In this document: positions 9,143 through 26,353 of the stretch, one piece after another
How positions within the stretch are numbered: the stretch's first letter is position 1
Layout: every line of letters starts with the position of its first letter
Source of the DNA: a phage
DNA: 64,000 nucleotides
Direction: 5' to 3' (one strand)
Sequence record: PZ295659.1
Made by a program: the position numbers and the translations under genes
Notes under the pieces: model-generated
Seen by the model: the letters and a program-made list of their open reading frames with translations, nothing else
The model's database searches: none
What the model was told of the DNA's origin: nothing

Positions 9143-9322
9143 TCACATAATCTCGTTAACATACATTTGCAATTCGGTGTGGGCTTCGGCCATCTTTTTC
9201 ATAGCTCTGTTAATGTCGATGTCTCCATCTTCGCAACCATGAGCATTTTCCCAATCAGACACCGCATTAGCATACTCTTCAATCAAAAACATTAACTTAG
9301 AAATTTTTTCTTTACGTGTCAT
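9143..9322 (-). CDS. hypothetical small protein (rI.-1 position)
   Basis: Track start is TTG; ATG at 9322 preceded by GAGGAG SD. Confidence 0.35.
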   Translation of the reverse strand: MTRKEKISKLMFLIEEYANAVSDWENAHGCEDGDIDINRAMKKMAEAHTELQMYVNEIM

Positions 9323-9329
9323 AACGTTC

Positions 9330-9378
9330 TCCTCTAGTAAGTAAAGACTACTATAACACAACCTGAGGAGAAGTAAAC
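9330..9378 (-). promoter_or_regulatory. early-promoter-like element with CTCCTC/GAGGAG inverted repeat that includes the downstream SD
   Basis: gtaaac at 9373-9378; ctcctctag...cctgaggag arms. Confidence 0.4.
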
Positions 9379-9385
9379 TGCTAAA

Positions 9386-9416
9386 TGCAAAAAAGCCCCA
9401 ACCTTTCGGAAGGGGC
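9386..9416 (-). terminator. rho-independent terminator after rI (GCCCCTTCC-GAAA-GGTTGGGGC + U6)
   Basis: Hairpin 9395-9416 followed on the minus strand by TTTTTT; identical hairpin at 25499-25522. Confidence 0.75.
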
Positions 9417-9423
9417 AGGTAAA

Positions 9424-9726
9424 TTAGATAGATTTAGGCTCTAATTTTATTTTCATGAACTCGGCAAATTGTCTGGCAGTTTTTATGCCTTGTTCATGAC
9501 ATTCAAATGCATCATCACAGGGGCTATTTTTGTAATGCTTTGCCATATACTTATAAAATTTTTCAGAATTCTCAACATTTTGAATTTCGAACAAAGTATA
9601 TACGTTTTTAATCCCTGATTCCATAAAGTTGTCAAAGTACGGGTCAACATATGCAGTGCCAACGATAGGAGTTGTTGCTGCAAAAAACCCCAGCATCGCC
9701 ACAATGGCTATCGCTCTTAAGGCCAT
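9424..9726 (-). CDS. rI: lysis inhibition regulator RI (antiholin)
   Basis: 100 aa, N-terminal signal-anchor MALRAIAIVAMLGFFAATTP; VDPYFDNFMESGI and conserved Cys pair resemble remembered T4 RI; located just below tk as in T4. Confidence 0.75.
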   Translation of the reverse strand: MALRAIAIVAMLGFFAATTPIVGTAYVDPYFDNFMESGIKNVYTLFEIQNVENSEKFYKYMAKHYKNSPCDDAFECHEQGIKTARQFAEFMKIKLEPKSI

Positions 9727-9738
9727 ATAGGCCTCCTG

Positions 9739-9951
9739 TTAATTTTGGCCAGTATTTATTTTTCGCCTTTGGACGGCCTTAACATCTGCGAGGTATTTTT
9801 CCAGCTTGCGCTTGCGTGTATAATCTGCTTTAGAACCAGTTTGACGGATATCCTCGTTTAAATGAGAAATAGAATGTCCTAATTCTCTTCGGATTTCATC
9901 CAATTGGGTTACAGTAAGATTACGAAGTTGTTTTTCGTTTAATTGCTGCAT
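9739..9951 (-). CDS. hypothetical protein (rI.1 position)
   Basis: 70-aa basic ORF between rI and tk. Confidence 0.45.
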
Positions 9952-9978
9952 ATATACCTCTTGGTTAGATATTAGTAT

Positions 9979-10560
9979 TTATAACAACCCTGTCAAATCA
10001 TTCCAATGCTTCCGGCATAATGACACATATCTATCGGTGTCACCAATTTCAATTTGACTGCCATCTGTAATTGGAAGTCCGTCTTCCGTGACTCTAGCTA
10101 CCATTGTGGCCTTTTTACCACAATGACAGACACCTTTAAGTTCAACAAGCTTATCGGCAATAGCCATTAATGCTTGAGAACCTTCAAATAGATTACCTTT
10201 AAAATCTGTTCGTAGTCCATATGCCATTACCGGCACATTGTATACGTCAACAATACGACTAAGTTGATACACCTTTTCAGTAGTTAAGAATTGAGCTTCA
10301 TCAACAAATACACAATGAATATCCTTTTGTGCTGCAGCCCATTTATAGAATTCAAAGATATCCATGTCTTTTGTAATTATATTGGCGTCCTGACGAATAC
10401 CAATACGAGAGACTATTTCACCTTTTGAATCGCGAGTATCAATAGCCGGTTTAAGAACTAATACACTCATGCCACGTTCTTTATAGTTATGAGCGGCAGT
10501 AAGTAATGAAGCAGACTTACCAGCGTTCATAGCGGCATATGTAAAAATTAAACTAGCCAT
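9979..10560 (-). CDS. tk: thymidine kinase
   Basis: P-loop AMNAGKS near N-terminus, C-terminal CHCGKKA...C zinc motif; typical TK1-family architecture and T4 position. Confidence 0.9.
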   Translation of the reverse strand: MASLIFTYAAMNAGKSASLLTAAHNYKERGMSVLVLKPAIDTRDSKGEIVSRIGIRQDANIITKDMDIFEFYKWAAAQKDIHCVFVDEAQFLTTEKVYQLSRIVDVYNVPVMAYGLRTDFKGNLFEGSQALMAIADKLVELKGVCHCGKKATMVARVTEDGLPITDGSQIEIGDTDRYVSLCRKHWNDLTGLL

Positions 10561-10750
10561 AAGAGTCCTTAGTTAAATTTTCTAAATATGTTTCTAAATC
10601 ATTTTCAGCTTTATCGATAGATTTTACTAATTCGTAGTATGTTTCAGCATCTCCATAATCCGAAGCCAATTCAAAAGATAAATCTCGTTCTAAACTAATA
10701 ATTTCGCTGATTAAAAATCGTATTTCATTCTTTTGTTCGCGAGTAATCAT
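10553..10750 (-). CDS. hypothetical small acidic protein (tk.1 position)
   Basis: 65-aa ORF; paralogous to next ORF. Confidence 0.45.
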   Translation of the reverse strand: MITREQKNEIRFLISEIISLERDLSFELASDYGDAETYYELVKSIDKAENDLETYLENLTKDSYG

Positions 10751-10932
10751 AAGGAATTTATATAATCAATAAGTTCTTGTTCTTTATCGTCGAAATCTTT
10801 ACACAGTTCTTCGTATTCGTCGGTATTAAAAGGACCGCATTCATCGTAAACTTTTTCCAATTCACTATTTTTATCCATAACTTCGTGAATAAGAGAAAAT
10901 AGTCTGTCTTTTTGTTCTTTACTTAAACTCAT
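10747..10932 (-). CDS. hypothetical small acidic protein (tk.2 position), paralog of 10553-10750
   Basis: Track start is TTG; ATG at 10932 overlaps upstream stop (ATGA). Confidence 0.4.
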   Translation of the reverse strand: MSLSKEQKDRLFSLIHEVMDKNSELEKVYDECGPFNTDEYEELCKDFDDKEQELIDYINSL

Positions 10933-11141
10933 AACCATGTAACCTTTAAGCAATATTCTTCTACATGTTGTTTACGACCTTTCTTATCAATAAAGGTATA
11001 TTCAACGAATGTTCCGATGTAGTCTTTATCTACGTCATGTGGACTATTAATTGGGCATTTAGTACGGCAAATGCGTTCCCATTGACGAATAATTACTGCC
11101 TTATTCTTTGGGTCATATGGATGTGGATAATGTATATTCAT
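10929..11141 (-). CDS. hypothetical protein (tk.3 position)
   Basis: Track start is TTG; ATG at 11141 (MNIHYPHP...). Confidence 0.4.
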   Translation of the reverse strand: MNIHYPHPYDPKNKAVIIRQWERICRTKCPINSPHDVDKDYIGTFVEYTFIDKKGRKQHVEEYCLKVTWL

Positions 11142-11635
11142 AATAATGGTTCCCAATCAACAATCACAATTTCTAGTTTAGTGGAATACGTATCTAAAAT
11201 CTCTTCGATGATATCCCAGTTTCCGCCACCGATACCTGCACCAATTCTTGGCATATAAATTACAGGCTTTGTTATCTTATTCTTTCCGAATTCATTTAAT
11301 TCTATTATACAATTCATTAAAGCAGAGTACTCAAAATTAGGTCCTGGCTCAAACTGTGTATAAAGATTAAAGCAATAAGCTTTATGTGTCTTAAAATATT
11401 TTTCATAAACCGAATAAGTCCCGAGTTTAGACTCGTCTCCGAATTCGGTTTGAAGTTTATCGGCTTCTAGAATTTTTGGATAAGCCTTTGCTAATTGTCC
11501 TGCCACACCAGCGCCCATTGTATGAAAACAATTACACCCATGAGCGATATTATTACCTTTAGAAAACAGGGCGACAATATCGCCCTTGATATAGTTTTTA
11601 ATCACTTGCTGCAAGTCCTCTAGTATAAGAGTCAA
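11138..11635 (-). CDS. macro-domain protein (DarG/TARG1-like ADP-ribose-binding or -hydrolase fold)
   Basis: Motif HGCNCFHTMGAGVAGQLAKAY resembles the N-C-x4-M-G-x-G-(I/V)-A signature of DarG/TARG1-type macro domains; no ATG at the ORF start (TTG at 11635 or GTG at 11605). Confidence 0.55.
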   Translation of the reverse strand: MTLILEDLQQVIKNYIKGDIVALFSKGNNIAHGCNCFHTMGAGVAGQLAKAYPKILEADKLQTEFGDESKLGTYSVYEKYFKTHKAYCFNLYTQFEPGPNFEYSALMNCIIELNEFGKNKITKPVIYMPRIGAGIGGGNWDIIEEILDTYSTKLEIVIVDWEPLL

Positions 11636-11945
11636 CTAGACGGTCCACCATAGAATTGCATGCTGCCTTATCTTTAGGTTCCGCCACCGAGCATTCTAAT
11701 ATTTGCCATTTTTTATGATATCGTTTAATTAAGGTAGACGCCTTGAACCTACTAGACGCCCCATCTTTTTCTCCGTCTTTATACGCATATAACAATTTTT
11801 GTGAAAAATCTACTTTACACTCTTGACTTTTACCACAATAATCAGACGCCGTTCTGTTTGTATACTCCGTTACATCAGTATATGTAGTATTAGCAAGAGC
11901 GTTAAATGAAACCAAGCCAACTATTAAAGCCAACATTTTGGTCAT
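11598..11945 (-). CDS. hypothetical secreted protein (T4 vs position)
   Basis: 115 aa with N-terminal signal peptide MTKMLALIVGLVSFNALA; T4 Vs is 114 aa in this position. Confidence 0.4.
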   Translation of the reverse strand: MTKMLALIVGLVSFNALANTTYTDVTEYTNRTASDYCGKSQECKVDFSQKLLYAYKDGEKDGASSRFKASTLIKRYHKKWQILECSVAEPKDKAACNSMVDRLVDSYTRGLAASD

Positions 11946-12484
11946 TCTTTTATTTCCAGTAGTTTGTTTGATTTAAGGTAATTAGCCTTTTCTAGGACTT
12001 CAGAAGCATATTTACTTCCAGCACTTGTCTTCCATCCCGCATTATATGAGGATATAGCTTTTCTTATATCCCCGTTATGTATATTTAACCAATAAGAAAA
12101 TTCGATATAAGCCCATCTGGCTGAATTAGACCGCTTAGATAGCATTTTCTTAATTTGGGCATCAGACATATTATAACCAAGCTGGTTAATTCTTGCCCTC
12201 ATTGTTGGTAGATAATTTTGGAACATTCCATACGCATGGTGACCTTTCTTATCTTTAAGATTAATACCAGCAGATGATTCCTGCCATAGTATTGCGGCCA
12301 TTATGTATCCAAGTCCTTTCTTATGCATATTTTCATGCGTTTTAAATTTTCCATCCTTAGAAAACTGTTCCCCAAACTGATAAGCATAATTCAAGTTATC
12401 GAGTTGGACATTACTAAAAGTATGCTCGGAGCTATGTGCTGATAAAGAAAGAGCAAATAGACCAGCGAGTAGTGCTTTTCTCAT
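11942..12484 (-). CDS. lytic transglycosylase-like (SLT-domain) protein with signal peptide
   Basis: Signal peptide MRKALLAGLFALSLSAHS; LWQESSAG-type catalytic Glu motif; adjacent to regB like T4 vs.1. Confidence 0.6.
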   Translation of the reverse strand: MRKALLAGLFALSLSAHSSEHTFSNVQLDNLNYAYQFGEQFSKDGKFKTHENMHKKGLGYIMAAILWQESSAGINLKDKKGHHAYGMFQNYLPTMRARINQLGYNMSDAQIKKMLSKRSNSARWAYIEFSYWLNIHNGDIRKAISSYNAGWKTSAGSKYASEVLEKANYLKSNKLLEIKE

Positions 12485-12492
12485 GTTTACCT

Positions 12493-12951
12493 CTAGATTT
12501 TAATCACTGCTTTAGAAGCTTTTCCTGGTAGTCGTTTACTGTTAATAATAGCCATTCTGCATTGAAGAGTCTTCATTTTGAATGCTGGATTTTCGCGACA
12601 AACTGTAAGTCCTAACCAAAGATTTCCATCAGTTATTTCTAAACGGCCTGGGCGATATTCGACGCCTTCGACAAAATCTTCATCAACATCTGGACGTGCC
12701 GGCATTGATAAAAATTCTGCAACTTCTTTAACATGATTTTTTACTTTACGAAATAATTCAAAAACGTAGTTCTCATCTATTTCCCTCTGGATGGCACGAT
12801 CTAAGAGATGTTGAGAATACTTGATATGAAAGCCTGGTAGTCCAAGAGACTTTGCAGCATCTTTTATACCGGCATTTATTTTGCGGAACTCCGTTTCAAA
12901 GATTCGACGGAGTTTATTACGGCGGATAAAAACGTCTGAATTGATAGTCAT
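12493..12951 (-). CDS. regB: RegB site-specific endoribonuclease
   Basis: 152 aa; MTINSDVFIRRNKLRR...RLEITDGNLWLG...GKASKAVIK closely matches remembered T4 RegB. Confidence 0.9.
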   Translation of the reverse strand: MTINSDVFIRRNKLRRIFETEFRKINAGIKDAAKSLGLPGFHIKYSQHLLDRAIQREIDENYVFELFRKVKNHVKEVAEFLSMPARPDVDEDFVEGVEYRPGRLEITDGNLWLGLTVCRENPAFKMKTLQCRMAIINSKRLPGKASKAVIKI

Positions 12952-12958
12952 TTTGATT

Positions 12959-13008
12959 TCTCCTCTAGTTGACAGGTCTATAGTAACACAACTAGAGGAG
13001 AAGTAAAC
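12959..13008 (-). promoter_or_regulatory. early-promoter-like element with perfect 12-bp inverted repeat CTCCTCTAGTTG/CAACTAGAGGAG including the regB SD
   Basis: gtaaac at 13003-13008; -10-like TATAGA between the arms. Confidence 0.45.
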
Positions 13009-13012
13009 TACT

Positions 13013-13228
13013 TTATTGATAAAATGGAGTTAAAGCCCAAGATTCTTTAGATACCATATCGGCGAAATGCCTCATCTCTTCGATTTGGCGACGACGCTGG
13101 TCAGCGTAGTCTTCTTCGCCTTCTTCCTTACAATCTTCAAGGTCTTCTTCAAGATACTTTAAGTATTCACTACAAATTTTGTTGACCTTTTCTTGAAAGT
13201 CTAATAACCCTGTAATAGTAGAAGCCAT
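13013..13228 (-). CDS. hypothetical small acidic protein
   Basis: 71-aa ORF, ATG start. Confidence 0.45.
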   Translation of the reverse strand: MASTITGLLDFQEKVNKICSEYLKYLEEDLEDCKEEGEEDYADQRRRQIEEMRHFADMVSKESWALTPFYQ

Positions 13229-13494
13229 TAGTATTTTTCCTCAGGTCGAAATACTGCACGACACGCCCACATGCTGGCTTCTTTTAGATGTTGCTTAGCA
13301 TACTTAAGAGCCTGCACTGCATCCATATCTTCTTTGGTTTGTTGCTCTGTTTCGTTTTCTTTCAAGATATATGCTTCTTCAATCAGAGCATCAAACATCA
13401 ATCCAAGACGGACTTCTGCATCTTTAATAGCATTCACTTTACTGATTTTATCGTCGGTATGCGGCTTGTAGCCTTTGATGTCTTCAATCGACAT
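13228..13494 (-). CDS. hypothetical small protein; positional candidate for Acb2-like cyclic-nucleotide sponge (T4 vs.4 neighbourhood)
   Basis: ATG at 13494 with GAGGAA SD; 88 aa; the functional call is position and size only. Confidence 0.35.
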   Translation of the reverse strand: MSIEDIKGYKPHTDDKISKVNAIKDAEVRLGLMFDALIEEAYILKENETEQQTKEDMDAVQALKYAKQHLKEASMWACRAVFRPEEKY

Positions 13495-13708
13495 AAGGAA
13501 TTTCCTCATCGGTGGCAAGGTCATATTCGACCAATTGGATAGGCTCATTAATACCATATCCACGTACAGTGATATCGGTTGACGGATATTTTCCAGTAAT
13601 ATCACCCGTTCTAAATGATTCAATGAATGATTGCTCGCCTGAGCAACTAAACCAGGCGGCAAAACATTTTAAAACATCTTCAGACCCTTCTATAATCAAT
13701 TTAGCCAT
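13484..13708 (-). CDS. hypothetical small protein
   Basis: 74-aa ORF, ATG start. Confidence 0.4.
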   Translation of the reverse strand: MAKLIIEGSEDVLKCFAAWFSCSGEQSFIESFRTGDITGKYPSTDITVRGYGINEPIQLVEYDLATDEEIPYVD

Positions 13709-14070
13709 TATAGACTCTCAGTAAAGGTACGAGCGATAACGTCACGCTGCTGTTCCGGAGTCAGAGAGTTAAAGCGAACTGCATAACCGGATACACGGAT
13801 GGTCAGCTGCGGATATTTTTCAGGATGCTTAACTGCATCTTCCAGAGTTTCGCGACGCAGAACGTTAACGTTCAGGTGTTGACCACCTTCAATTTTAACT
13901 TTAGGTTGATGTTCAATTTCAATTTCACGAGCATTAAAACCGTAGAAAATTTCCGGGTCTACAATAGCGTCTTCTTTAAAAGTCTTAGAGACAATAATCC
14001 GGGCTTGAGTATCGTCTTCAAAATAAATAGTGCCTTTATGTGCACCTTCAAGAATTTGATATGCTTTCAT
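13708..14070 (-). CDS. grcA-like: autonomous glycyl radical cofactor (GrcA/YfiD-like)
   Basis: C-terminal [60 protein letters not shown] carries the glycyl-radical RVSGY motif and looks near-identical to enterobacterial GrcA. Confidence 0.85.
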
Positions 14071-14076
14071 ATAACC

Positions 14077-14385
14077 TCAATTAGAAAATAAATTTATCCA
14101 AGATTTTTCTTTAATCAAAAATGGGTCGGAATTATACGCCATTAAACTTTGAGTGATTAATCCCTTAAATGGTCCATCAATAAATTCCATTTTGAAATGT
14201 GGAATACTAGTCATCAACCGTGCATTAGGAGCAGTACAAAGAACCTGCTGCCCTGCGAACGGACCTTTAGTCAAACGATATCGTTTAGGTTTAAAATGGT
14301 AAATCTCGTAATTTTCTACAAGAGCCCTTTTATTGCATACTGGGCTGTTATAACAATACTCAAAAACTTCAATAGTGGTCATCAT
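14077..14385 (-). CDS. hypothetical protein
   Basis: ATG at 14385 overlapping upstream stop (ATGATGA). Confidence 0.4.
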   Translation of the reverse strand: MMTTIEVFEYCYNSPVCNKRALVENYEIYHFKPKRYRLTKGPFAGQQVLCTAPNARLMTSIPHFKMEFIDGPFKGLITQSLMAYNSDPFLIKEKSWINLFSN

Positions 14386-14921
14386 TGCATTCCAATCACA
14401 AAAAATTGAGGACGAGCAATACCGCCGATGCAATATTTGCTTTTGCAGCAGTGCTGTACTGATTTAATATGGACATTGTAAATCTTATCCATATCAGGAG
14501 CTTTAATAGGCTCGTCAATTATATACAGAATACGAGAAAGCATTAATCCACGGAATTTAGAACCTTCATTGCCAATAAAACTACGGACAGAATCAGTAAA
14601 TAAACGGAATCGAATATCATCGCTAGAATAACGAGAAAATTCTTTTTTAATGTTGCCAACAGAAATTTTAGCATAAGCTGAAGTATTAGAAAGAACAATA
14701 ACTGTTCCACCGTCGTACAGCCAATTAACCGCAAAATTAGTTACTGCGGTCGATTTACCTGATTGTCTGCCACCATCTAAACGAAGTGTACAGTACTGCT
14801 TGAGTACGTCTTCAAATGGCGGGGCATAACCGTTCTTACAAATTTCTTCTACTCTAGCATCAGAATGGTGTGTAAAAGCATTCATCAGGGATAGATAAGG
14901 TCCAGTTAAAAATGTTCTCAT
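14382..14921 (-). CDS. small P-loop NTPase (Walker A GGRQSGKST, Walker B-like IIDEP)
   Basis: 179-aa ORF, motifs read from translation. Confidence 0.5.
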   Translation of the reverse strand: MRTFLTGPYLSLMNAFTHHSDARVEEICKNGYAPPFEDVLKQYCTLRLDGGRQSGKSTAVTNFAVNWLYDGGTVIVLSNTSAYAKISVGNIKKEFSRYSSDDIRFRLFTDSVRSFIGNEGSKFRGLMLSRILYIIDEPIKAPDMDKIYNVHIKSVQHCCKSKYCIGGIARPQFFVIGMQ

Positions 14922-16845: not shown

Positions 16846-17127
16846 CTATTTTTCTGAAGCGCCCGAAATATATTTTTCAAGACGTTGTTTCATCAGCGAA
16901 CCGTTCTTGGCGATTTCTTCCGGTTTATCACACATACGCAACAAGGCTTCAAGCTTAACGATATCACTGGTACGTTCAAATTTGCGAGTATCTATCTTAC
17001 TAGCAAGTTCAGAAATACGTGCTAATAGACTTTCAGCTTCAACCAAAGCTGCACCTAGCTTAGTTGCAAATGTGTCAGTAGCTTCGTTAAGAATAGATTC
17101 TGATAAAAATTCACTATATGTTTTCAT
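16846..17127 (-). CDS. internal-protein-like ORF with capsid-targeting sequence
   Basis: ATG at 17127 gives [10 protein letters not shown]...; 93 aa. Confidence 0.5.
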
Positions 17128-17612
17128 ATATACGCTTTCCAAGTTCCTGTTTTAAATGTTGAGATTACGCGTTTCGCACGATTAGGTGTCTGACGATACC
17201 ATTTAGATTGGGCTAGATTTACTGCCGCTTCGTCCCAACGTTTCTGTTGAAGCATACGAAGAGAATTAGTAAAACCAGCGACGCCTGCTACACCCATTTG
17301 GAAGACCATATTAACCAATGCACATCGACGAACTGCATCTAAAGAATCATATACCGGTTTAAGTTTAGCATTACCCAAGATTCCGCGAACGGCTTTATCA
17401 ACGTCTTCATTAAATAGCTTTTCGGCCTCATCAAGGGTAATTGTACCGTTGCATTTACGTCCGATCATTCTGTCAAGTTCAGCTTTAGCTACGGCTAAAG
17501 ACGGGTTCTTTGTTACTAAATGACCTATGCCAATCGTCCAAAAGCCTTCAGTGTCTTTGTATAAAGTCAGTCTAAGACCTTCGTCATTACGAAGCATTTC
17601 AAATATATTCAT
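17124..17612 (-). CDS. e: T4-type lysozyme (endolysin)
   Basis: [32 protein letters not shown]... strongly matches T4 lysozyme including catalytic Glu11, Asp20 and Thr26; track start at 17624 is GTG. Confidence 0.95.
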
Positions 17613-17646
17613 AATACCTCCCACGTTTATAGGAGGTATTTATTAC
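17613..17646 (-). promoter_or_regulatory. inverted repeat sequestering the lysozyme SD, with a late-promoter-like AATAAATA inside the 5' arm region
   Basis: Minus strand AATACCTCC-TATAAACGTG-GGAGGTATT-ATG: 9-bp stem pairs the GGAGG SD; resembles the translational control described for T4 gene e. Confidence 0.55.
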
Positions 17647-18105
17647 TTATAGGATGGTAGTGAGCACCTTATATAATGATTTGCCCATTACATATTCCCA
17701 TTGAGAAGGTTTAATTAAAGCGAATGCATCAAATTCAGGAATCTGTCGTCCGTCTGGGAATGTATGATAGGAATTACAAACACTGTTTCTGAATTGCTCG
17801 TGCTCTACAGGGATGGTATATAGGAACAGATGAATATTCTTATTGTCTGAGTAATGATGTTCACCTAGGTCTTTCAGGAAGGCAGGGTCATATTGTGTAA
17901 ACCCAGTTTCTTCTTCGCATTCACGAATAGCGGCTTCGATAGGAGATTCACCGGGCTCGACACGACCTTTAGGAATATCCCACCGATGAGCTAAAGAACC
18001 TTTAGGACGAGAACCAGTTACACGCCCCATGAATAATTCTTTATCTTCGGTAAGGAAAATAATACCAGCTGATAGTTCTTTCACTTTATTTTTCTTACTC
18101 ATCAT
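17647..18105 (-). CDS. nudE: Nudix hydrolase
   Basis: Nudix box GRVEPGESPIEAAIRECEEETG; immediately follows e as in T4. Confidence 0.8.
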   Translation of the reverse strand: MMSKKNKVKELSAGIIFLTEDKELFMGRVTGSRPKGSLAHRWDIPKGRVEPGESPIEAAIRECEEETGFTQYDPAFLKDLGEHHYSDNKNIHLFLYTIPVEHEQFRNSVCNSYHTFPDGRQIPEFDAFALIKPSQWEYVMGKSLYKVLTTIL

Positions 18106-18593
18106 CTCAAATTCCTGCATTCGGTAATAAAACGTTCAACTTCATTATTCTTGGCCTTTATCTTGTCTTTATGTTCTTGTAAACTACTTTTAATAAGATT
18201 AATAATGATGGCGGCGGTACCGCCGCCAATGATGCCACCAACAACACTTATGATAATAGATACTAATAAGATAGCAATAATATCAACAAAACCGAAAGAA
18301 CTCACCTTAGTACTGAAAAACCATATAGATGGTACAAATATAATCCATCCTGTTATCCATTGGCACTTATTGAAAAACTTTTCAAGCTCAGCTTGAGTTG
18401 TTCGTATTACTTCATCAATAGGTTGATATCCATTAATGTATCTGTTCACGATAATACCTGCTGGCTGGTCGATTTTAAATTCTTGGCAAATACGTTTCAC
18501 TAAGTAGGATGGACAGGATGTCCAATCTACTGAATAGTATGAAATACCTTCATTGCCGTCGTCTATATTAGACCAATATGTTTTGTTAATCAT
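18102..18593 (-). CDS. hypothetical membrane protein
   Basis: 163 aa; hydrophobic segments WITGWIIFVPSIWFF and IIAILLVSIIISVVGGIIGGG. Confidence 0.45.
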   Translation of the reverse strand: MINKTYWSNIDDGNEGISYYSVDWTSCPSYLVKRICQEFKIDQPAGIIVNRYINGYQPIDEVIRTTQAELEKFFNKCQWITGWIIFVPSIWFFSTKVSSFGFVDIIAILLVSIIISVVGGIIGGGTAAIIINLIKSSLQEHKDKIKAKNNEVERFITECRNLR

Positions 18594-26196: not shown

Positions 26197-26273
<77 letters not shown>

Positions 26274-26279
26274 AATATA

Positions 26280-26353
26280 TGACCCAGACCAGATTCGAAC
26301 TGGTAACCTTTCCCTTATGAGGGGACTGCTGCTAACCGTTGAGCTACAGGGCC
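26280..26353 (-). tRNA. tRNA with CAU anticodon (Ile, lysidine-type, or Met), no encoded CCA
   Basis: Manual fold: acceptor GGCCCTG/CTGGGTC with one mismatch, anticodon loop CTCATAA, T arm ACCAG-TTCGAAT-CTGGT. Confidence 0.7.

What the first reader, a model, noticed from the sequence alone, without database searches (positions are those of the whole stretch)
11138..11635. DarG/TARG1-type macro-domain protein in the tk-vs interval
The translation carries HGCNCFHTMGAGVAGQLAKAY, which resembles the N-C-x4-M-G-x-G-(I/V)-A signature of macro domains that bind or remove ADP-ribose. A phage macro domain could reverse ADP-ribosylation imposed by host defence toxins such as DarT, or tune the phage's own ADP-ribosyltransferases. 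The ORF has no ATG start (TTG or GTG only) and overlaps the neighbouring gene by about 38 nt, so its translation start is unresolved.
Basis: partly seen in the sequence, partly recalled or inferred. Interest (0 to 1): 0.6.

Follow-up and report, generated by a model that had tools for sequence, protein, structure and literature searches.

The report
T4 tk.4 (adfM) macrodomain ortholog
This is the RB69-like phage's copy of the phage T4 gene tk.4, a small ADP-ribose-removing (macrodomain) enzyme that a 2025 preprint already showed protects T4 from the bacterial DNA-ADP-ribosylating defence DarTG2, so the finding is correct but not new.

Summary
On the minus strand, between vs and tk.3, lies an intact macrodomain gene carrying the quoted motif. 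The window is a Mosigvirus (RB69-like T-even) genome. The gene is the syntenic ortholog of T4 tk.4, with 85% amino-acid identity.

The "unresolved start" resolves by homology to GTG at 11605. That gives 155 aa and an 8-nt overlap with vs, not 38 nt. Seven other T4-like (Straboviridae-type) phages, T4 included, have ATG at this codon, five with an in-frame stop directly upstream.

The function is already published. Deleting T4 tk.4 sensitises T4 to DarTG2, and the gene was renamed adfM (bioRxiv 10.1101/2025.11.20.689424).

One refinement: the protein is not strictly DarG/TARG1-type. The catalytic lysine (DarG K80, TARG1 K84) is replaced by Gln84, invariant in 262 of 262 relatives examined. TARG1's Asp125 is also missing. 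This matches Streptomyces SCO6735, a Gln-type macrodomain shown to cleave thymidine-linked ADP-ribose from DNA.

Most likely mechanism: early-expressed orphan-antitoxin hydrolysis of ADP-ribosyl-thymidine on phage DNA. Novelty: already known. Interest: low.

The parts
11138..11605 (-). tk.4 / adfM ortholog: 155-aa single-domain macrodomain protein (GTG start, TGA stop)
   Evidence: Annotated with these exact limits in HX01 and moskry. It is 85% identical over 155/155 aa to T4 Tk.4. Pfam Macro scores 28.4 bits, above the cut-off. The model has pLDDT 95.2. dN/dS is 0.02 against HX01 and 0.06 against T4.
11603..11605 (-). GTG start codon, at the position of the ATG used by T4 and six other T4-like (Straboviridae-type) phages
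   Evidence: Seven other phages (Tequatrovirus T4, Kanagawavirus, Dhakavirus, Krischvirus and three records without genus-level taxonomy: Shigella phage sb3, Klebsiella phage Shark_ER15, an Acinetobacter phage) start with ATG at this codon. Five of them have an in-frame stop immediately upstream. The 52 homologs aligned all begin M-I-x-x-x-I-x-G-D.
11616..11620 (-). Shine-Dalgarno GAGGA, 10 nt upstream of the GTG and inside the 3' end of vs
   Evidence: Read directly from the sequence. The same GAGGA lies at the same distance in T4.
11501..11542 (-). Codons 22-35, HGCNCFHTMGAGVA: first ADP-ribose-binding loop, holding His22 and Asn25
   Evidence: Translation verified. H22, G23, N25, C26, G33 and A35 are invariant in 52 homologs. 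N25 aligns with DarG N22, PhiKZ AdfM N23 and SCO6735 N27, residues whose mutation reduces activity.
11354..11368 (-). Codons 80-84, NLYTQ: Gln84 occupies the position of the catalytic Lys of DarG (K80) and TARG1 (K84), and of the essential Gln85 of SCO6735
   Evidence: Profile alignment to TARG1. MAFFT alignments A3 and A4. Q84 is present in 262 of 262 family members. SCO6735 Q85A/E mutants are inactive.
11216..11251 (-). Codons 119-130, PRIGAGIGGGNW: second (diphosphate-binding) loop; Gly126 sits where TARG1 has the catalytic Asp125
   Evidence: Translation verified. P119, I121, G122 and G124 are invariant. G122 and G124 align with SCO6735 G126 and G128.
11598..11945 (-). Upstream neighbour vs (valyl-tRNA synthetase modifier); its stop TAA (11600-11598) lies inside GTGATTAA, so tk.4 is probably translationally coupled to it
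10929..11141 (-). Downstream neighbour tk.3 (DUF7202); its ATG overlaps the tk.4 stop (ATGA)
   Evidence: Pfam DUF7202 at 2e-38, matched from residue 6 of the longer ORF. Annotation. Sequence.
11568..11586 (-). Terminator-like RNA hairpin AGGGCGATATTGTCGCCCT followed by GUUUUCU, inside codons 7-13 of tk.4 (side feature, function unknown)
   Evidence: Found by the terminator scan. The stem is kept in T4, Shigella phage sb3, Dhakavirus and Krischvirus despite dS above 1.2 and an amino-acid change. Folding gives z=-2.3.

Best explanation
The gene is the Mosigvirus ortholog of T4 tk.4 (adfM), an 'orphan antitoxin'. It encodes a free-standing 155-aa macrodomain that the phage makes as part of the tightly packed vs-tk.4-tk.3-tk.2-tk.1-tk gene string.

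The proposed mechanism is as follows. The host DarTG2 toxin DarT2 ADP-ribosylates thymidines in single-stranded phage DNA (TNTC motif), which blocks replication. The macrodomain binds the ADP-ribose between its two glycine-rich loops and hydrolyses the ribose-thymine N-glycosidic bond. Free ADP-ribose and intact DNA are released, and replication continues.

The chemistry is probably that proposed for Streptomyces SCO6735 rather than that of DarG or TARG1. There is no catalytic lysine. Instead an invariant Gln84, held in place by the invariant Asn25, positions the distal ribose for water-mediated cleavage.

Shown here: gene limits, orthology, fold, conserved pocket, the Gln-for-Lys active site, and purifying selection. 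Taken from the literature: the anti-DarTG2 phenotype of T4 tk.4, and thymidine-ADP-ribose hydrolysis by a Gln-type macrodomain. Inferred: that this particular protein hydrolyses ADP-ribosyl-thymidine, and that it does so in this phage.
For: Orthology:
- 85% identity over the full length to T4 Tk.4, in the same place between vs and tk.3.
- All 15 family-invariant residues are identical in T4 and the window protein.

Function of the ortholog:
- tk.4 was the single significant hit of a T4 transposon library on a DarTG2 host.
- A clean knock-out sensitised T4 to DarTG2 (bioRxiv 10.1101/2025.11.20.689424).

Fold and pocket:
- Pfam Macro passes its cut-off, and the model has pLDDT 95.2.
- Both ADP-ribose loops are invariant.

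Active site:
- Gln84 aligns with DarG K80, TARG1 K84 and SCO6735 Q85.
- Gln84 is invariant in 262 of 262 relatives.
- SCO6735 removes DarT-made thymidine ADP-ribose from DNA and rescues DarT toxicity. It loses all activity as Q85A/E and nearly all as N27S (PMC9411070).

Other support:
- An unrelated-lineage phage macrodomain, PhiKZ gp104, removes DarT2 marks in vitro. This shows the strategy exists in phages (PMC13309987).
- Strong purifying selection: dN/dS 0.02-0.06 against close relatives.
Against: - No experiment exists on this phage's protein. The T4 evidence is genetic only and comes from a preprint. No biochemistry on any Tk.4-type protein was found.
- The protein lacks the catalytic Lys that is essential in DarG (K80A is the inactive control).
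- It also lacks two things that matter in SCO6735: the 5-residue 'mobile loop' insertion and the DNA-positioning Lys34 and Lys89.
- Sequence and structure scores to Bt_1257, Poa1p, TARG1 and DarG are nearly equal. The substrate therefore cannot be read from similarity alone.
- The NCBIfam DarG equivalog score is 30.5 bits against a cut-off of 250.
Confidence: 0.75

Rival explanations
1. The protein blocks DarT2 mainly by binding it (stoichiometric inhibition), or by shielding modified or target DNA, rather than by catalysis.
For: Catalytically dead SCO6735 Q85A, DarG K80A and TARG1 K84A all still inhibit DarT activity in vitro, and SCO6735 does so most strongly (PMC9411070). The canonical catalytic Lys is absent here.
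Against: The active-site residues H22, N25 and Q84 and both ADP-ribose loops are invariant across hundreds of relatives from very different phages. That is the pattern expected of an enzyme, not of a binder that co-evolves with one toxin. There is no equivalent of DarG's C-terminal DarT-binding domain: the protein is 155 aa, and the DarG model is matched only over positions 4-146 of 338.
Confidence: 0.08
2. It is a small-molecule 'phosphatase' or deacylase, as the RefSeq annotation says: ADP-ribose-1''-phosphate phosphatase (Poa1p-like) or O-acetyl-ADP-ribose deacetylase acting in nucleotide metabolism, with no role in defence.
Against: The only phenotype found for tk.4 is conditional essentiality on DarTG2. 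Poa1p has Ser where this family has its invariant Gln (alignment). The 'phosphatase' label is an inherited domain-name annotation, not a tested activity.
Confidence: 0.07
3. It erases other ADP-ribose marks. Candidates are the phage's own Alt/ModA/ModB modifications of host proteins or RNA, or marks made by other host defence ADP-ribosyltransferases (RNA- or protein-directed). Under this reading DarT2 reversal is only one of several activities.
For: SCO6735 and TARG1 act on protein (Glu/Asp-linked) as well as DNA substrates. A macrodomain specific for Arg-ADP-ribose exists (MavL, listed). The family is very large and occurs in 2845 of 50,697 phage records from many genera, which is wider than one would expect for a counter to one defence system.
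Against: No data link Tk.4 to Alt or Mod targets. That Alt/ModA/ModB modify arginine, a linkage ALC1-like macrodomains are not known to cleave, is my own knowledge and was not tested. In the T4 screen tk.4 scored only with DarTG2 among the systems tested.
Confidence: 0.1

Closest known systems
Phage T4 Tk.4 = AdfM (anti-DarT factor Macrodomain), bioRxiv 10.1101/2025.11.20.689424
   Same: Same length (155 aa) and 85% identity with no gaps. Same position between vs and tk.3. Same Shine-Dalgarno sequence and spacing. All invariant residues are identical.
   Different: GTG instead of ATG start, and an 8-nt rather than 4-nt overlap with vs. There are 23 substitutions outside the conserved core. The anti-DarTG2 phenotype has been tested only in T4.
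Streptomyces coelicolor SCO6735 and Bacteroides Bt_1257 (Gln-type subclass of ALC1-like macrodomains; PDB 5E3B, 2FG1/2AFC)
   Different: Only 23-32% identity. The 5-residue mobile-loop insertion that characterises that subclass is absent. The DNA-positioning Lys34 and Lys89 are not conserved; Ala32 stands at the Lys34 position.
DarG macrodomain (antitoxin of DarTG2; PDB 5M31, 5M3E, 5M3I, 7OMU) and PhiKZ gp104, also named 'AdfM' (PMC13309987)
   Different: About 19-21% identity. DarG and PhiKZ gp104 carry the F-P-T-K motif with the catalytic Lys, whereas this family has N-L-Y-T-Q. DarG has Asn where this protein has His22. There is no C-terminal DarT-binding domain and no adjacent darT. The name AdfM has been given independently to these two non-orthologous phage macrodomains.
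Human TARG1 (C6orf130; PDB 4J5R/4J5S)
   Same: Top Foldseek hit (E=3.5e-10). TARG1 also removes thymidine ADP-ribose from DNA.
   Different: The Lys84/Asp125 catalytic dyad is Gln84/Gly126 here. TARG1 has Ser where this protein has Asn25.
Yeast Poa1p (ADP-ribose-1''-phosphate phosphatase; PDB 6LFQ-6LFU)
   Different: About 24% identity. Poa1p has Ser at the Gln84 position. Its substrate is a small molecule, and no defence role is known.

Membership tests
Macro domain superfamily (Pfam PF01661) | Profile score at or above Pfam's gathering threshold | tested here: met
   28.4 bits against a cut-off of 22, E=1.7e-6, covering profile positions 2-117 of 118.
Macro domain superfamily (Pfam PF01661) | Three-layer alpha/beta/alpha macrodomain fold with two glycine-rich ADP-ribose-binding loops | tested here: met
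Macro domain superfamily (Pfam PF01661) | Binding of ADP-ribose | not testable with these tools
   Needs ITC or a co-crystal with the purified protein.
T4 Tk.4 / AdfM orthologous group | Full-length high identity to T4 Tk.4 | tested here: met
   132 of 155 residues identical, no gaps, E=5e-105.
T4 Tk.4 / AdfM orthologous group | Conserved position between vs and tk.3 in the tk-vs gene string | tested here: met
   The same order is seen in Shigella phage sb3, Kanagawavirus, Dhakavirus and Krischvirus.
T4 Tk.4 / AdfM orthologous group | Required for growth on DarTG2-carrying hosts | not testable with these tools
   Shown only for T4. It needs a knock-out in this phage.
DarG antitoxin (NCBIfam NF048014 equivalog) | Score at or above the equivalog cut-off | tested here: not met
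   30.5 bits against a cut-off of 250. The PADLOC DarG model matches at 2.3e-8, over the macrodomain part only.
DarG antitoxin (NCBIfam NF048014 equivalog) | Catalytic lysine in the F-P-T-K motif (K80 in T. aquaticus DarG) | tested here: not met
   The aligned residue is Gln84 in N-L-Y-T-Q. Gln is present in 262 of 262 relatives.
DarG antitoxin (NCBIfam NF048014 equivalog) | C-terminal DarT-binding domain and an adjacent darT gene | tested here: not met
   The protein is 155 aa and matches only positions 4-146 of the 338-position DarG model. Its neighbours are vs and tk.3.
TARG1-type hydrolase | Lys84/Asp125 catalytic dyad | tested here: not met
   The profile alignment puts Gln84 opposite K84 and Gly126 opposite D125.
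SCO6735/Bt_1257 subclass of ALC1-like macrodomains | Gln at the Lys position, positioned by the loop-1 Asn | tested here: met
   Q84 aligns with Q85 and N25 with N27; both are invariant. Their roles are described in PMC9411070.
SCO6735/Bt_1257 subclass of ALC1-like macrodomains | Mobile loop five residues longer than in DarG and TARG1 | tested here: not met
   The insertion after the Gln (HGMKT / HGIYK) is absent from the window protein and the other Tk.4-family rows of alignment A4. 167 of 262 relatives have the short 8-residue spacing.
SCO6735/Bt_1257 subclass of ALC1-like macrodomains | DNA-positioning Lys34 and Lys89 | tested here: not met
   Ala32 aligns with Lys34, and Lys89 lies in the missing loop.
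Poa1p-type Appr-1''-p phosphatase | Active-site residues probed in Poa1p (His23, Ser30, Phe152) and phosphatase activity | tested here: inconclusive
   His22 aligns with His23, and Thr29 aligns with Ser30 (alignment). Phe152 was not mapped, and activity is not testable here.

The most novel reading that the evidence does not exclude
Tk.4-type phage macrodomains may be a third mechanistic subtype of the ALC1-like class. They have the Gln active site of SCO6735, but lack its mobile loop and DNA-positioning lysines, and also lack the Lys of DarG and TARG1. Their very wide spread (2845 phage records; 17,778 cluster representatives) may reflect a broader substrate range than DarT2-modified thymidine. 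They could, for example, also erase RNA- or protein-linked ADP-ribose made by other defence systems. That would make them general anti-ADP-ribosylation factors.
Probability: 0.15. Interest if true: 0.45.

Novelty: already known. Interest (0 to 1): 0.15.

Why it matters
The finding itself adds little. The gene has been annotated as an A1pp/macro-domain protein since the T4 genome annotation, and its anti-DarTG2 role was reported in 2025.

This analysis adds three things of practical use:

- The correct gene model for RB69-like phages is a GTG start at 11605, giving 155 aa.
- The T-even 'AdfM' is not a DarG-type (Lys) enzyme but a Gln-type macrodomain. Mechanistic work and inactive-mutant design should therefore target Gln84 and Asn25, not a lysine.
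- The name AdfM now covers two non-orthologous phage macrodomains, T4 Tk.4 and PhiKZ gp104. This could mislead annotation transfer.

Tried and rejected
- TTG at 11635 as the start (165 aa, 38-nt overlap). Rejected because all homologs start ten codons later. T4 and four other phages have an in-frame stop directly before that codon.
- Classifying the protein as DarG or TARG1. Rejected on the catalytic-residue tests.
- Promoter scan of 9300-14500. It found fewer sigma-70-like sites than shuffled sequence (15 against 19.4), so nothing can be said about the gene's own promoter.
- First structure job with the T4 sequence in the alignment.
- Literature searches for biochemistry on Tk.4. None was found beyond the HIDEN-SEQ genetics and an Hfq RIL-seq mention.
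- Rfam and tRNA scans of the window. They found only two tRNAs, unrelated to the finding.

Full report
**What the window is**

The 2.1-kb stretch around the finding is 99.4% identical to Escherichia phage vB_EcoM_SQ17. It is 96-99% identical to about 150 other Mosigvirus (RB69-like T-even) genomes. In those genomes the gene order on the minus strand is regB, vs.1, vs, the gene in question, tk.3, tk.2, tk.1, tk. Phage T4 has the same order.

**The observation**

The translation contains HGCNCFHTMGAGVAGQLAKAY. Thymidine kinase lies at 9979-10560 (Pfam TK 2.5e-57) and vs at 11598-11945. The place and the motif are therefore real.

**The start codon**

- GenBank and RefSeq records of close relatives annotate a 155-aa product that begins at window position 11605.
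- That codon is GTG. It is preceded by GAGGA with a 10-nt spacer.
- T4 has ATG at the homologous codon, with the same GAGGA at the same distance and an in-frame TAG directly upstream.
- Seven other phages (Tequatrovirus T4, Kanagawavirus, Dhakavirus, Krischvirus, Shigella phage sb3, Klebsiella phage Shark_ER15 and an Acinetobacter phage, the last three without genus-level taxonomy in their records) also have ATG there. Five have a stop immediately before it.
- All 52 homologs aligned begin M-I-x-x-x-I-x-G-D.

The gene is therefore 11138-11605. It overlaps vs by 8 nt (GTGATTAA), not 38, and overlaps tk.3 by ATGA.

**Is it a macrodomain?**

- Pfam Macro scores 28.4 bits, above its cut-off of 22.
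- PHROG 335 matches at 6.9e-67.
- An AlphaFold2 model built on 52 homologs has mean pLDDT 95.2 and pTM 0.90.
- Foldseek against the PDB gives TARG1, Poa1p, Bt_1257 and DarG at E=3.5e-10 to 3e-7.
- The two glycine-rich ADP-ribose loops are invariant or nearly so in the family.

**Is it a working gene?**

dN/dS is 0.02 against HX01 and 0.06 against T4. tblastn finds a homolog in 2845 of 50,697 phage records across many genera. A profile search of 1.84 billion cluster representatives finds 17,778 relatives at E of 1e-3 or better, and 1,134 at 1e-30 or better.

**What is already known**

- T4 tk.4 is annotated 'phosphatase; contains A1pp phosphatase motif'.
- A 2025 preprint (HIDEN-SEQ, 10.1101/2025.11.20.689424) infected a DarTG2-expressing host with a T4 transposon library and found tk.4 as the single significant hit. 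A clean knock-out sensitised T4 to DarTG2. The authors noted similarity to the DarG macrodomain and named the gene adfM. They inferred enzymatic removal of ADP-ribose from DNA but did not show it.
- Earlier work had shown that T4 lacking both adfA and adfN stays resistant to DarTG2, and had predicted a further factor (PMC11825919).

The window protein is 85% identical to T4 Tk.4 over its whole length.

**Where the 'DarG/TARG1-type' label needs correcting**

I recovered the true sequences of the DarG macrodomains from PDB alignments, and those of Bt_1257, TARG1 and SCO6735 in the same way. PhiKZ gp104 came from its paper. I aligned all of them with the family (A3, A4). The result:

- The motif N80-L-Y-T-Q84 lies opposite DarG N-F-P-T-K80, PhiKZ M-F-P-T-K, TARG1 L-I-T-K84, and Bt_1257/SCO6735 N-M-I-G-Q85.
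- The HMM alignment to TARG1 gives the same pairing, and puts Gly126 opposite TARG1 Asp125.
Tyr82 is also in 262 of 262, Asn80 in 261, Asn25 in 260 and His22 in 254.

The family therefore lacks the lysine that is essential in DarG and TARG1. The NCBIfam DarG equivalog scores only 30.5 bits against a cut-off of 250, and covers only the macrodomain part of the model.

**A precedent for a lysine-free enzyme doing this job**

Streptomyces SCO6735 has Gln85 at this position. It removes DarT-made ADP-ribose from thymidine in DNA faster than DarG or TARG1, and it rescues DarT toxicity. It is dead as Q85A or Q85E and nearly dead as N27S. The authors propose water-mediated catalysis, with Gln85 positioning the distal ribose and Asn27 locking the Gln (PMC9411070).

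The window protein shares His, Asn, Gln and the two loop glycines with SCO6735. It lacks that subclass's 5-residue mobile-loop insertion and its DNA-positioning Lys34 and Lys89. It is best described as a separate, phage-rich branch of the ALC1-like class with an SCO6735-like active site.

The chimallivirus protein PhiKZ gp104 was also named AdfM and was shown in vitro to remove DarT2 marks (PMC13309987). It is a true DarG-type (F-P-T-K) macrodomain and is only about 19% identical to the window protein. The shared name hides two independent acquisitions.

**Mechanism proposed**

DarT2 ADP-ribosylates thymidine in single-stranded phage DNA. The macrodomain, translated from the vs-tk gene string and probably coupled to vs translation, binds the ADP-ribose between its two loops. 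It hydrolyses the ribose-thymine bond with Gln84 and Asn25 positioning the substrate. Replication then continues.

- Shown here: gene model, orthology, fold, pocket and active-site make-up, selection.
- From the literature: the T4 phenotype, and the chemistry of a Gln-type relative.
- Inferred: the activity of this protein in this phage.

I put this at 0.75.

**Rivals**

- Inhibition by binding rather than catalysis. Dead mutants of relatives still inhibit DarT, but the invariant catalytic-site residues argue for an enzyme.
- A Poa1p-like small-molecule phosphatase, as annotated. Structural similarity is equal to the others, but the only known phenotype is the DarTG2 one.
- A broader eraser that also acts on protein- or RNA-linked ADP-ribose. 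This is not excluded and is favoured somewhat by the family's very wide distribution.

**Verdict**

The feature is already known and of low interest as a discovery.

Noticed in passing
window 11568-11586 (minus strand), with flanks 11555-11630: A GC-rich hairpin (AGGGCGA-UAUUG-UCGCCCU) followed by GUUUUCU sits inside codons 7-13 of tk.4 and was picked up as terminator-like. The stem uses codons that look GC-rich for a 38% G+C genome (GGC, GTC, GCC; codon usage was not computed). It is kept in T4, Shigella phage sb3, a Dhakavirus (loop change only) and a Krischvirus. In the Krischvirus the peptide changes from GDIVA to GDLIA, yet the stem is kept and is one pair longer. This holds although synonymous divergence between these phages exceeds 1.2. 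The hairpin is absent in Kanagawavirus, Klebsiella and Acinetobacter relatives. The minimum-energy fold also pairs the tk.4 Shine-Dalgarno (UAGAGGAC) with GUUUUCUA just after the hairpin (z=-2.3). T4 shows one compensatory pair there. Possible roles are a terminator or attenuator, an mRNA 3'-end stabiliser for vs, or a translation gate.
   Followed up: partly
tk.4 mRNA (window 11138-11605, minus strand); literature: A 2026 preprint (10.64898/2026.06.19.733364) found the phage T2 tk.4 transcript in Hfq RIL-seq chimeras with the host small RNA ArcZ, and detected Tk.4 protein in the T2 proteome. No effect on protein level was seen. The hairpin plus U-run noted above might be the Hfq-binding feature, but this was not tested.
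   Followed up: no
window 17647-18120 (minus strand), next to lysozyme at 17124-17624: A 157-aa NUDIX hydrolase (Pfam NUDIX 2.2e-16) lies beside the phage lysozyme gene, at the position of T4 nudE (e.1). From my own knowledge, not checked here, T4 NudE hydrolyses ADP-ribose among other substrates. ADP-ribose would be the product released by the macrodomain.
   Followed up: partly
window 11598-11945 (minus strand), gene vs: The immediately upstream gene vs, whose stop overlaps the tk.4 start, was the most strongly depleted T4 gene in minimal medium relative to rich medium in the HIDEN-SEQ screen. Pfam has no family for it.
   Followed up: no
window 26197-26353 (minus strand): There are only two tRNA genes in 64 kb, tRNA-Arg(tct) and tRNA-Met(cat), 6 nt apart. 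From memory T4 has a larger cluster of eight, so this would fit an RB69-like genome. That comparison was not checked with the tools.
   Followed up: yes
window 9979-11945 (minus strand): Six consecutive genes (vs, tk.4, tk.3, tk.2, tk.1, tk) are chained by 4- or 8-nt stop/start overlaps (ATGA or GTGATTAA types). This suggests translational coupling along the whole string. tk.3 matches DUF7202 at 2e-38 and has no known function.
   Followed up: partly
literature / nomenclature: The name AdfM has been given independently to two non-orthologous phage macrodomains: PhiKZ gp104 (DarG-type, F-P-T-K lysine) and T4 Tk.4 (N-L-Y-T-Q glutamine). They are about 19% identical. Annotation transfer by name would blur two different active sites.
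   Followed up: yes
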